Shown piece by piece: positions 60,701-63,700 of a stretch of 64,000 bases of DNA. Numbering within the stretch: the stretch's first letter is position 1; each line of letters opens with the position of its first letter. Source of the stretch: Carcharhinus amblyrhynchos (Eukaryota); contig OZ336882.1 of NCBI GenBank assembly GCA_965287045.1, forward strand, positions 18,538,001 to 18,602,000. Direction: 5' to 3'. The position numbers were made by a program.

Positions 60701-63700
60701 CAGTAAATTAATTGCAGTGTTAATGTAAGCCTACTTGTGACATGAATAAATAAATTGCCTGAAACTTGAGTTTGTTCTGTGAGTACTGCACCTTGAATGC
60801 TGGAGCCATTCTCTTCTGCTTCACGAGGGGATAATTAGTTGTTACAATTTTTGACTATGCACTCAAACTTACTTTAGATTCACTATCAGTCATCTCTACC
60901 ATAAATCAATCCTACCTTCCTTAACAATTGGGATTTATTTTTACTACCCAATAACTGCCCATACAATAGTGCAACTTCAGTGTGCTAGCAGTGAATCCCC
61001 TCAATGTGTGTCCTGGATACTTTAATTTTATGCATGAACCCCCCCCGCCCCCCCCATCCCAGCCCCATGCATAACTGCTAGAAGGCAGACAAATGTGCAT
61101 TCTGGTGAGGTGAAACCCAGGGATTGGCCACTTGAGCTGTCAATCAAACTTGCTAATGACCTCCTCTGTGTATTCCTGGCAGCTGGCCCTTGTGGAGCTA
61201 AGTGGAATGAATCCAGTCCAACATATTAGATATGAATGTTACCAGAATGTTTTAATGAATCCCTATGTTTCAAATTGACATGGTATTAGCTACCCAACTG
61301 CAAATCTATATTTCAGCTACATTTAATCAGTGTTCCGAAGAGCCGGGTGCATTGTATGGACTTAATCATTTATGATCTGAATATAATTTAACAGCATATC
61401 CCTCAAATGAATTAATCCAGAAACTCTCTTTAGAAAAACAACTTGCTGGATTTTCATCCTTGAGGCTGGGATTGCGGGACTTCCCGACTTAGCTCAACTG
61501 CCTCGGGAAAATGCTAGGAAAGGTGGGATTTTCATTATGTGAGGGCAGTGGGTACAGTCCGGCTTGCCAATCTTGGGAAAAGATCAGAGGCAGCGACAGG
61601 AGTTGCCAGGGGCTGGCAGGATGCTGTGGGACTTTGTTCCAGGTATAATGAAAAAGGTAAGGCCTTGTAACCGTCAGAATCTCTCAGCTCCCACATGAAT
61701 GACCATTTCATTCCACCTCATGTCCCTATCCACTCATTATAAACCCTCAAGCCTTCCATGCCAGGTATGCCTCAACCCACTCCCTATAGCCCATAATGTC
61801 CCCATGCCAAGCCAAGCCTTTTCCATGCCCATTCTTCACTCACCATGCAATGTATATTAACCAAACCTCTTTAAGCGCTCTTGACTGAGAGTCCATTAGA
61901 GACATCTGAGCCATGCTGCTTGATTAATAGCCCTGGTACTTTGCTATCTTCTATCAAATGCACAGTGCTTATGTGCGCAAGATAAAGAGGATTCGAGTGT
62001 TTGCTATTTCAGCTACTGATACTTAAAAAGGGTCTGGGTGGTTGACACTTTTCAGTAAGCAAAATATTTTTCTAAGAAAGCAACAAGCTTATTTTTACAC
62101 ATTTTATTGTTGTTTTCACTGGTTATATACAGTGTATAGTGGATAAATAGGCATGCAAATGGCATAGCCTAGTATGGCGGGTGTGGGCATGAGGAGGATC
62201 TTTTGAAGTTACTTTTCAAAGGGTTCCCTCATGCAGGCTATGGTTCACAACACTTCTCTGATGCCGTGAACCGCAATTCATTGAAAAGCTGTCCAGGCTG
62301 CATGAACTGAATTCTTCGGGTGGTGGGGGCTTGATGACATCACCACATTCCTCGAATGCCAGCAGCCATTTTAGGCTCAAATGTGCGTTGACTGGCAGCA
62401 GATGGGACTTTGCCCTCACTTGCAAGGTAGTCTCGTTTTGGAGAGCTACAGGCCGACAGCTCTCCAGCCCATCCAGAAACAGTGCTGCAGTGGCCGGAAG
62501 AGGCACTACAGAGACCTGCCTGGTGTTGGGACATGGAGGCCAGGTAAACGGTAGGGATCATGGGGTTGGAGGACATAGGACTGCTGGGGAGATTGTGATA
62601 AGGGCAATTGGGTTATCGGGTGAGAGGCACAGGGATGGGTGTGTGGGGAGGGGAGCAAGGTGAGTTGTCCTGCCCTTGAATGAGGATGCCCCCAGTCAGA
62701 AGGGGACTACCAATGGAGGCATCCCACCCCTAACCTCTCACCCGAGGTCGAAGATAGAAAATATTTCTGTTTTGCACTCTGAGTAGTCTGTTCACCTAAA
62801 AATTGAGGCATAGCATGAAAAGTCCCTTCGATATTCATTAAGTGGTCAATTAACTGGGGCAAGGGTGGAATTTCCATTTGAGGTTTCTGCCCGGCCGGTA
62901 AAATCACATCTGGGTCAGGGCAAGCGGGTTCATCCATACTCAACATCTGTCAGGGGGTGAGTGTAAAATTCAGGCTTATGAAAGTCTTTTTTTTGTTTAT
63001 ATCCAATCAAAGTCCAACTCAAAATCTCAACATTCCAGATCCAAGCTGACAAAACAGGCTGGCCACTTCCTGTCTTGGGCTTGATCTCCATGATCAAAGT
63101 TGATTGGAACACGATTGCATTTCCTCCAAGGCTTGATCTTATTTGCATCTTAGCCAAAAGGCCGAAATGCTGCTCTAAAAAAATTGCTTCAAATAAAGCC
63201 TCGGTGTAACCTCATGACTTCGACCAAGTGCAGGACAACAAAACTACACTTGATCTTAGCCAACACAGGCCTAAGAAAATTACAAAGGACAAGAGCATGC
63301 CTATCCAGACCAGAGAGGGAGTGCAGTGTGCAGGGGCCTGCACCCTTCAAAGGCACTGTTATAAATTGGAAACCCTGAGAATTGGGTCAAGAATTCCGTC
63401 ATCAGGTCCCAGCCGACATTTTCACCCCTCCAAAGTGTCTCCCAACTTCTTGAGAATCCAGCCAAATACCTGAAAACATGAAGTTGGTGGCTGTTTGTCA
63501 GGTGTTCCCCGTTCCATCTCGTTTACTCTTATTATTAATATGAAGACGTCCTGACGTCTGCGCCTTTATTCAGTTGGCTAATTCAAACTGTAATGATTAG
63601 CAGATGAGAATCCTTTGCAGAACTTTTTGCCTACCTAAGCCACTGCCCTTCAATTCAAATGTGAAGCTCCTGCAATGTTTTCTTATGAACAGATGCTATT

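What the first reader, a model, noticed from the sequence alone, without database searches (positions are those of the whole stretch)
62986..63280. U2 snRNA-headed short element whose U2 match stops at nt 37
Seen: on the minus strand the element starts with a degenerate U2 5' end containing a perfect 21-mer (U2 nt 17-37) and diverges exactly after nt 37, inside the branch-point recognition sequence. About 80 nt later a second perfect U2 nt 9-27 copy overlaps an ATGCAAAT octamer, followed by two more agatcaag motifs and an A-rich end. Known, from memory: Keno (Tx1 clade) and Utopia retrotransposons insert into U2 genes at about nt 37-38, and snRNA-headed SINEU families are described in crocodilians. 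Inference: this is a non-autonomous U2-headed retroelement (SINEU-like, or a Keno-derived unit co-mobilising its U2 target) in a shark, not a simple truncated U2 pseudogene.
Basis: partly seen in the sequence, partly recalled or inferred. Interest (0 to 1): 0.72.

Follow-up and report, generated by a model that had tools for sequence, protein, structure and literature searches.

The report
Stacked U2 snRNA pieces, retroposon-like
A 300-base stretch in a cartilaginous-fish genome carries two separate copies of the front end of the U2 spliceosomal RNA on a non-U2 body with a short A-run, which looks like a reverse-transcribed U2 chimera of the kind described so far only in crocodilians, but whether it belongs to a repeated family could not be tested here.

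Summary
The sequence facts are right. On the minus strand, 63282-62986 holds a U2 5' end with a perfect 21-mer (Rfam U2 positions 17-37). A second perfect 19-mer (positions 9-27) lies 77 nt further on, followed by two shorter U2-like words and an 8-A run. None of this is expected by chance.

It is not a U2 gene: it scores 25.7 bits against a threshold of 46. It is also not a simple truncated pseudogene.

"Stops at nt 37" is softer than stated. The U2 model carries on to position 45 with one deletion, and weakly to a Sm-site-like T-run at the expected distance.

The Keno/Utopia reading loses support. No LINE ORF lies beside the element and no U2 3' part follows it. The head also ends in a single-stranded part of U2, where reverse transcriptases are known to start or switch.

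The best reading is a SINEU-1-like composite retroposed sequence, made by repeated addition of U2 5' pieces.

Copy number, the decisive test, could not be run because no eukaryotic genome DNA was searchable. The element is single-copy within this window. No target-site duplication was found.

Interest is moderate to low until copy number is known.

The parts
63243..63282 (-). U2 piece 1: Rfam U2 model positions 1-37. It is degenerate at 63264-63282 and a perfect 21-mer at 63243-63263.
63236..63242 (-). Possible continuation of U2 piece 1 to model position 45, after one deleted base. Posterior probability is low.
63205..63272 (-). Hairpin D1: 22 pairs, 5 of them G.U. The 5' arm is U2 positions about 12-36 and the loop starts at position 37. 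It is stable only on the minus-strand RNA.
   Evidence: -27.9 kcal/mol, z -5.56, 0 of 200 shuffles; plus strand z -1.42. (top 0.25% of 15,984 windows, with 18 strand-places more stable).
63175..63199 (-). Stretch aligned by the U2 model to its Sm-site region. It contains a run of 7 T at 63177-63183, about 100 nt from the element's start.
   Evidence: It is not found once the head is removed.
63147..63170 (-). U2 piece 2: about model positions 4-27, with a perfect 19-mer at 63147-63165. ATGCAAAT at 63141-63148 overlaps its end.
63132..63141 (-). U2 piece 3: a 10-nt repeat of the word at 63249-63258 (U2 positions 22-31), placed after a 5-nt filler. It is a stutter of piece 2.
63122..63204 (-). 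Hairpin domain D2, in which U2 stem-loop I of piece 2 is lengthened by 6 further pairs and enclosed by an outer stem.
   Evidence: z -2.53, 2 of 200 shuffles; plus strand z -1.17.
63078..63087 (-). A 10-nt direct repeat of 63130-63139. It is a copy of piece 3 plus two non-U2 bases.
62998..63121 (.). Non-U2 body, an imperfect palindrome D3. The arms run about 63105-63069 and 63057-63003 and have 8-nt perfect ends.
   Evidence: z -2.49 on the minus strand and -2.89 on the plus strand.
62986..63000 (-). A-rich end, with 8 A at 62987-62994. It is the putative remnant of a poly(A) tail.
   Evidence: No target-site duplication was found around it.

Best explanation
The stretch 63282-62986 (minus strand) is a decayed copy of a short, non-coding, reverse-transcribed composite of the SINEU-1 type. 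Its 5' part was built by at least two successive additions of U2 snRNA 5' portions.

Proposed order of events (inferred, not shown):
1. A LINE reverse transcriptase of the poly(A)-using L1/Tx1 kind copied a non-U2 RNA, the palindromic body with its A tail.
2. At the 5' end of that RNA it switched to a U2 snRNA in the single-stranded stretch after stem-loop I (about position 27-31), stuttered once, and ran to near the U2 5' end.
3. In a later round, or by a second switch, another U2 portion was added in front. It starts either at about position 37-45 or, if the weak collinear match is real, just past the Sm site at about position 112-115.

The element has no promoter of its own that I could recognise. 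A run of 7 T would stop RNA polymerase III. Transcription would therefore have to come from outside the element, as has been proposed for SINEU.

What is shown: the U2 pieces, their order and orientation, the stutter, the A-run, and the lack of coding capacity. What is inferred: retroposition, template switching, and membership of a dispersed family.
For: - Two independent perfect U2 words lie in one orientation 77 nt apart, each unique in the window, with 0 of 100 shuffles matching.
- The U2 model aligns both to its 5' end.
- The third and fourth words are local repeats. Units A and B share nothing beyond the U2 part.
- The published text on SINEU-1 describes the same anatomy: short 5'-terminal U2 pieces added recurrently, partial duplications inside the snRNA-derived parts, internal oligo-T, a poly(A) tail, length under 500 bp, and target-site duplications that are hard to see.
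- All three break points (about 27-31, about 37-45, about 112-115) fall in regions the Rfam U2 structure line marks as unpaired. 3'-truncated snRNA retrocopies are reported to break in single-stranded regions.
- No ORF of 40 aa or more in 55778-64000 matches a Pfam family: 0 of 89 ORFs and 0 of the 21 longer ORFs there.
- Tx1-type LINEs are reported in whale shark and Callorhinchus (passage in PMC8455134).
- Sampling argument (inference): a one-off chimera is very unlikely to fall in a given 64 kb window, whereas a family of thousands of copies is not.
Against: - There is no second copy in the 64 kb window. The only hits are the self-match and 18 short ones, best E 0.034. Another repeat, by contrast, has 21 partial copies in the same window.
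- No target-site duplication was found: best score 6, shuffle mean 5.64, and 104 of 200 shuffles reach it.
- The A-run has only 8 A.
- No LINE that shares its tail is in the window. The one reverse transcriptase that I classified is CR1-like, and CR1 does not use poly(A) tails (the tail point is from my knowledge).
- Homology to crocodilian SINEU consensus sequences could not be tested.
- The differences from U2 are oddly placed, with at least 6 in the first 19 nt and none in the next 21. Simple decay does not predict this.
- A 93-aa reading frame over the body has no relatives in the protein collection. That collection may not hold such frames at all.
Confidence: 0.5

Rival explanations
1. 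One-off chimeric retropseudogene. A single retroposition event with two template switches onto U2 snRNA produced this locus, and no family exists.
For: - The element is single-copy in the window.
- snRNA-headed chimeras made by template switching, and 5'-complete 3'-truncated snRNA retrocopies, are established for mammalian L1 (Discussion of PMC4494074; passages of PMC5322556).
- The perfect 21- and 19-mers fit direct copying of the host's own U2 RNA rather than a long-diverged master copy.
Against: - It needs two switches onto the same RNA species plus a stutter in one event.
- Such one-offs are rare, so meeting one in a given 64 kb window is unlikely (inference).
- The degenerate first 19 nt next to a perfect 21-mer fits an inherited, already altered head better than a fresh copy.
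- No target-site duplication was found.
Confidence: 0.22
2. Keno- or Utopia-derived unit. The head is the upstream U2 flank of a U2-targeting LINE, co-transcribed from a U2 gene. The body is what is left of that LINE's untranslated ends.
For: - Perfect identity to U2 ends at position 37.
- Utopia and Keno share a site after which the U2 flank resumes at position 39 (section 6 of PMC4640811). A second paper gives '37 nucleotides downstream' for Keno (passage in PMC6136364).
- A crocodilian Tx1 family that clusters with Keno carries a U2 head almost identical to SINEU-1 heads.
- Tx1-type repeats are reported in cartilaginous fishes.
Against: - The U2 model carries on to position 45 with one deletion and weakly to the Sm-site region. 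That is past the insertion site.
- The second U2 piece ends at about position 27-31, not at 38.
- No reverse transcriptase or endonuclease domain is found in any ORF of 40 aa or more between 55778 and 64000.
- The 3' flank has no U2 positions 39 onward.
- The hairpin apex at position 37 and the single-stranded nature of that region each explain the break without Keno.
Confidence: 0.1
3. Old U2 retropseudogene or U2 variant, about 200 nt (63282-63081). It has been remodelled in place by local duplications and substitutions, and the A-run is fortuitous.
For: - The U2 model prefers a full-length collinear alignment covering positions 1-192 at 25.7 bits, E 0.0068 in a 1.1 kb search.
- In that alignment the region replacing stem-loops II has nearly the right length: 47 model positions against 44 bases.
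- A Sm-like T-run lies about 100 nt from the start.
- From memory only, and not tested: two further 6-nt window words, at 63199-63204 and 63170-63175, sit about where the same words sit in vertebrate U2.
Against: - The extensions add only 2.5 and 3.3 bits. Nothing beyond the second 5' piece is detected once the head is removed.
- Uniform decay cannot leave 21 and 19 perfect bases beside stretches at random-level identity.
- A second U2 5' end sits where stem-loop III should be.
- There is no tandem structure.
Confidence: 0.13
4. A functional small RNA: a U2-like Sm-class RNA, or a hairpin precursor whose structure hides the branch-point-recognition sequence.
For: - Hairpin D1 is stable only on the U2-sense strand: z -5.56 against -1.42. 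All 5 non-Watson-Crick pairs in its helices are G.U.
- The whole element folds better than 200 of 200 shuffles.
- A Sm-like run lies between two hairpins.
Against: - No Rfam family reaches its threshold.
- 18 other strand-places in the window fold at least as well over 68 nt.
- By eye, and using a recalled consensus only, I saw no snRNA-type promoter in the 80 nt upstream.
- There is no conservation or expression data.
- The first 19 nt of the U2 part, including stem-loop I, are damaged.
Confidence: 0.05

Closest known systems
SINEU-1 (crocodilian snRNA-headed SINEs; Kojima 2015, PMC4494074; Results and Discussion read)
   Same: It is short and non-coding. It has one or more short U2 5' pieces stacked at the 5' end in one orientation, partial duplication inside the snRNA-derived part, an internal oligo-T run, a non-snRNA 3' half of unknown origin, an A-rich end, and target-site duplications that are hard to see.
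   Different: The host is a cartilaginous fish, whereas that paper states SINEU was not detected outside crocodilians. Sequence similarity to SINEU-1 is untested. Copy number is unknown. No U1 piece is present. No flanking Mariner-type target was recognised. The A-run has only 8 A.
SINEU-3 (internally deleted U2 with a foreign 3' end; same paper)
   Same: The U2 5' end is followed, possibly, by the Sm-site region of U2 and then by non-U2 sequence.
   Different: In SINEU-3 about 50 nt of U2 are deleted. Here the stretch between is replaced at nearly full length and a second U2 5' end follows.
Keno (Tx1 clade) and Utopia, LINEs that insert into U2 genes (PMC4640811 sections 6 and 8; passage in PMC6136364)
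   Same: The perfect U2 match ends one base before their shared insertion point. Relatives of Keno in crocodilians carry U2 heads.
   Different: No LINE ORF is adjacent. No U2 3' part follows the element. The U2 similarity may pass the insertion point. The second piece ends elsewhere.
snRNA chimeric retrogenes and tailless snRNA retropseudogenes of mammalian L1 (as reviewed; PMC5322556 passages)
   Same: The snRNA pieces are 5'-complete and broken in single-stranded regions. The chimera is made by template switching.
   Different: Those are single events with target-site duplications, usually carry one snRNA piece, and are tied to therian L1. Here there are two pieces, no duplication was found, and the host is reported to lack full L1.
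U2_sat, the U2-derived satellite of Ciona (named in PMC4640811 section 8)
   Same: It is repeated U2-derived DNA outside U2 genes.
   Different: There is no tandem periodicity here.

Membership tests
U2 spliceosomal RNA gene (Rfam RF00004) | Score at or above the family's gathering score of 46 bits. | tested here: not met
   There were 0 matches at gathering score in the whole window. The best score is 25.7 bits.
SINEU | 5' head derived from U1 or U2 snRNA. | tested here: met
   The U2 model aligns positions 1-37(45) at the 5' end, E 0.0098 to 0.0051 in small searches. The perfect 21-mer is unique in the window.
SINEU | Short (under 500 bp) and non-coding. | tested here: met
   The element is about 297 nt. 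No Pfam family was found in any overlapping ORF.
SINEU | 3' poly(A) tail. | tested here: inconclusive
   There are only 8 A within a 15-nt A-rich stretch.
SINEU | Many dispersed copies that share the same structure, making it a retrotransposition unit rather than independent chimeras. | not testable with these tools
   No eukaryotic genome DNA collection was available. There is no second copy in the 64 kb window. The protein-level proxy search found nothing.
SINEU | Sequence similarity to a described SINEU consensus. | not testable with these tools
   Consensus sequences are in Repbase or in the paper's figures and supplements.
SINEU | Signs of LINE-mediated insertion (target-site duplication or an empty orthologous site) and a Tx1 partner with a shared target or head. 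| tested here: inconclusive
   No duplication above chance was found; the paper notes these are often not visible in old copies. No Tx1 element was recognised in the window.
Keno/Utopia insertion in a U2 gene, or a derivative that carries its U2 flank | The U2 upstream flank ends at position 38 and the U2 downstream flank starts at position 39. | tested here: not met
   The perfect match ends at 37, but the alignment runs on to 45. No U2 3' part is found in 62760-62995.
Keno/Utopia insertion in a U2 gene, or a derivative that carries its U2 flank | A LINE body with reverse transcriptase and endonuclease, or recognisable untranslated ends of such a LINE. | tested here: not met
   0 of 89 short ORFs and 0 of the 21 longer ORFs in 55778-64000 match a family. 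The untranslated ends could not be compared because no reference was available.
Chimeric or tailless snRNA retropseudogene (single event) | A 5'-complete snRNA piece broken in a single-stranded region and flanked by target-site duplications. | tested here: inconclusive
   The break points lie in unpaired regions of the model. No duplication was found.

The most novel reading that the evidence does not exclude
This is one copy of a cartilaginous-fish family of snRNA-headed retroposons, the first outside crocodilians. In it, Tx1-type LINEs have repeatedly captured U2 5' ends. The master RNA has also evolved a strand-specific hairpin that pairs the captured branch-point-recognition sequence with the element's own body. 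That would make capture of U2 heads a recurrent, ancient habit of this LINE clade in vertebrates rather than a crocodilian oddity.
Probability: 0.3. Interest if true: 0.55.

Novelty: new member of a known kind. Interest (0 to 1): 0.35.

Why it matters
snRNA-headed retroposons (SINEU) are described only in crocodilians. That holds in the papers I could search, and the original paper says none were found elsewhere.

How such elements arise and how they are transcribed without an internal promoter is still open. A second, independent lineage in cartilaginous fishes would show whether U2 capture is a general property of Tx1-type reverse transcriptases. It would also allow a test of the two origin models, template switching against co-transcription with a U2 target, by comparing where the heads end across copies.

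If it is a one-off chimera, it is an ordinary by-product of LINE activity.

Tried and rejected
- Rfam at gathering score over the whole window gave nothing.
- Permissive Rfam scans of the element without its head and of the 3' flank gave no further U2 part, no other snRNA, no tRNA, 5S or 7SL head and no ribozyme. The snoRNA and miRNA rows there have E of 0.3 to 9 and I take them as chance.
- ARAGORN found 0 tRNA-like genes in the window.
- Tandem Repeats Finder found no array in the element.
- The target-site duplication search gave nothing above chance.
- blastn of 62800-63450 and of 59000-64000 against the window found no repeat covering 60758-64000.
- The alignment of unit A with unit B found nothing beyond the U2 part. 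At DNA level the inverted match of the head is not significant, with 50 of 500 shuffles reaching it.
- The protein proxy for copy number, a 93-aa frame over the body, found no candidate. This is uninformative.
- The bacterial-type promoter and terminator scan is not applicable to this organism and was ignored.
- The octamer as a promoter element was rejected, since it occurs at chance frequency.
- 'U2 gene split by an insertion' was rejected.
- My first folding script timed out. It was replaced.
- I did not use the search of protein representatives, structure prediction, complex prediction or the genome-contig scan. That collection holds only bacteria and archaea, and none of these tools could bear on a non-coding vertebrate repeat.
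- Not checked: the supplements of PMC4494074 and PMC4640811, which hold alignments and consensus sequences that may bear on similarity and on where U2 heads end (closed). The closed collections metagenome contigs and viral contigs were also not searched.
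Full report
**What is there.**
Read on the minus strand, the stretch 63282-62986 contains the following, in order.
- A U2-like 5' end at 63264-63282, with several substitutions and inserted bases.
- A perfect 21-mer at 63243-63263.
- About 77 nt with no strong match.
- A perfect 19-mer at 63147-63165. 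Its U2 likeness extends, with two mismatches, to 63170.
- A 5-nt filler, then a 10-nt repeat of part of the first piece at 63132-63141.
- A 10-nt repeat of that word plus two extra bases at 63078-63087.
- An imperfect palindrome covering 62998-63121.
- A 15-nt A-rich end with 8 A at 62987-62994.

The 21-mer and the 19-mer are each unique in the window even with 3 mismatches allowed, and 0 of 100 shuffles gave any match. Position numbers are those of the Rfam U2 model as printed.

The 8-mer AGATCAAG occurs 6 times in the window, 3 of them in this element. The octamer ATGCAAAT is present at 63141-63148 but is unremarkable: 10 in the window against 5.9 expected, and 9 of 100 shuffles reach 10.

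**It is not a U2 gene.**
Rfam finds nothing in the window at curated thresholds. In a permissive scan of 62600-63700 the U2 model scores 25.7 bits against a threshold of 46, with E 0.0068.

**Does the match stop at position 37?**
The perfect identity does stop there. When only 63236-63300 is given, however, the model continues to position 45 with one deleted base, at 19.9 bits.

Given 63168-63300, it prefers to skip both stem-loops II and align the Sm-site region to a stretch holding 7 T at 63177-63183, at 22.4 bits. Given the whole region, it aligns to position 192 at 25.7 bits.

The 47 skipped model positions face 44 bases, so the spacing is kept. The gains are only a few bits. With the head cut off, the only U2 hit left is the second 5' piece, at 13.6 bits with E about 1.

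The collinear continuation is therefore a lead, not a finding. From memory only, two further 6-nt words of the window (63199-63204 and 63170-63175) lie about where the same words lie in vertebrate U2. I could not test that, because no U2 reference sequence was available from a tool.

**Structure.**
The whole element folds better than all 200 shuffles, with z -3.57. It falls into three domains.
- D1 (63205-63272) pairs U2 positions about 12-36 with the bases that follow. It has 22 pairs, 5 of them G.U. Its loop begins at position 37. Its energy is -27.9 kcal/mol, z -5.56, and 0 of 200 shuffles do as well. The plus strand gives z -1.42.
- D2 (63122-63204) lengthens stem-loop I of the second piece. 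It gives z -2.53 against -1.17 on the plus strand.
- D3 (62998-63121) is a DNA-level palindrome, equally stable on both strands.

As a check against the local background, 40 of 15,984 68-nt windows of this sequence fold at -27.9 kcal/mol or below, and 18 other strand-places are more stable than D1. D1 is therefore unusual but not unique.

At DNA level the inverted match is not significant, with 50 of 500 shuffles reaching it. The strand asymmetry and the coincidence of the loop with the end of the U2 identity remain unexplained.

**Surroundings.**
- No ORF of 40 aa or more between 55778 and 64000 matches a Pfam family: 0 of 89 short ORFs and none of the 21 longer ones there.
- In the whole window, 2 of 94 ORFs of 85 aa or more carry a reverse-transcriptase domain. 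These are 17857-18402(-) and 47948-49222(+).
- The second of these is CR1-like. Its closest named relatives are in sharks, rays and a chimaera at 59-70% identity.
- The 3' flank 62760-62995 holds no U2 3' part.
- No target-site duplication exceeds chance.
- There is no second copy in the window, and 60758-64000 holds no repeat shared with the rest of the window.
- There is no tandem array and no tRNA-like head.

**Comparison with print.**
I read the Results and Discussion of Kojima 2015 (PMC4494074).
- SINEU families have U1 or U2 heads, poly(A) tails and internal oligo-T.
- They are thought to be moved by Tx1 LINEs that cluster with Keno.
- SINEU-1 grew by recurrent 5' addition of short U1 or U2 pieces, with partial duplications inside them.
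- One Tx1 family carries a U2 head.
- None were found outside crocodilians.

That anatomy is what I see here.

I read sections 6 and 8 of Kojima and Jurka 2015 (PMC4640811). Utopia and Keno share a site after which the U2 flank resumes at position 39. A passage in PMC6136364 gives '37 nucleotides downstream' for Keno.

Passages of PMC5322556 say that tailless retrocopies of U2 and other RNAs are 5'-complete and break in single-stranded regions. Passages of PMC8455134 say that whale shark and Callorhinchus have Tx1-type repeats, no full L1, and mostly CR1.

Searches for SINEU with snRNA, with shark, as a whole word (23 papers) and for 'U2-derived' with retrotransposon (4 papers) gave no description of such elements in cartilaginous fishes. 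I looked at passages of four of those papers. This covers only the open-access library.

**Reading.**
The two independent U2 5' pieces, the stutter, the non-U2 body and the A-run fit a reverse-transcribed composite made by repeated switching of a LINE reverse transcriptase onto U2 snRNA. This is the SINEU-1 pattern.

All break points lie in parts of U2 that the model's structure line shows as unpaired. That accounts for the end near position 37 without invoking Keno.

The Keno/Utopia reading keeps only the one-base coincidence and fails three tests.

Whether this is a family member or a one-off cannot be settled here. I favour a family at about one in two, for three reasons. The layered build implies several rounds of retroposition. 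The head looks inherited rather than freshly copied. A one-off would rarely fall in a given window.

**Limits.**
- No eukaryotic genome DNA could be searched.
- No reference sequences of U2, SINEU or Keno were available from a tool.

Noticed in passing
window 60386-60757, with copies such as 1683-1885, 34353-34561, 41860-42057, 36166-36378 and 41213-41488: This is a very abundant repeat of about 200-280 bp. It has 21 partial copies at 64-85% identity scattered over the 64 kb window on both strands. Several overlap long ORFs without Pfam matches. It may be part of a LINE or a SINE and was not classified.
   Followed up: partly
window 47948-49222(+) and 49200-49730(+): This is a CR1-like LINE remnant with a 425-aa open frame carrying a reverse-transcriptase domain. 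Its closest named relatives are in Chiloscyllium, Hypanus, Pristis, Leucoraja, Mobula, Stegostoma and Callorhinchus at 59-70% identity, and in birds and turtles at about 50%. This fits a cartilaginous-fish origin of the window.
   Followed up: partly
hits P0052 and P0063: Proteins labelled as reverse transcriptase of Proteus mirabilis and Klebsiella pneumoniae, on contigs of about 1.6 kb, are 60-61% identical to this vertebrate CR1-type reverse transcriptase. They look like animal DNA carried into bacterial assemblies.
   Followed up: no
window 17857-18402(-) and 44757-45011(-): There is a second reverse-transcriptase fragment (RVT_1, E 3.3e-09). There is also a weak match to a DDE_1 transposase domain, below threshold at 19.1 bits against 22.
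   Followed up: no
window 20981-21052, 34949-35020 and 50689-50760: Three very stable hairpins fold on both strands at -30.7 to -37.8 kcal/mol over 68 nt. They are the strongest in the window and are DNA palindromes of unknown nature.
   Followed up: no
window 62177-62744: A cluster of strong hairpins lies just downstream of the element, at 62177-62244(+), 62453-62520(-) and 62677-62744(-). The last one also gave chance-level miRNA-like Rfam rows. They may belong to another mobile element next to the U2 composite.
   Followed up: no
window 63225-63239 and 62664-62678: There is a 15-nt inverted repeat, 93% complementary, between the 3' arm of hairpin D1 and a site 546 nt away. My own rough estimate gives about 0.3 such pairs by chance in 2.5 kb, so it is probably chance.
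   Followed up: no
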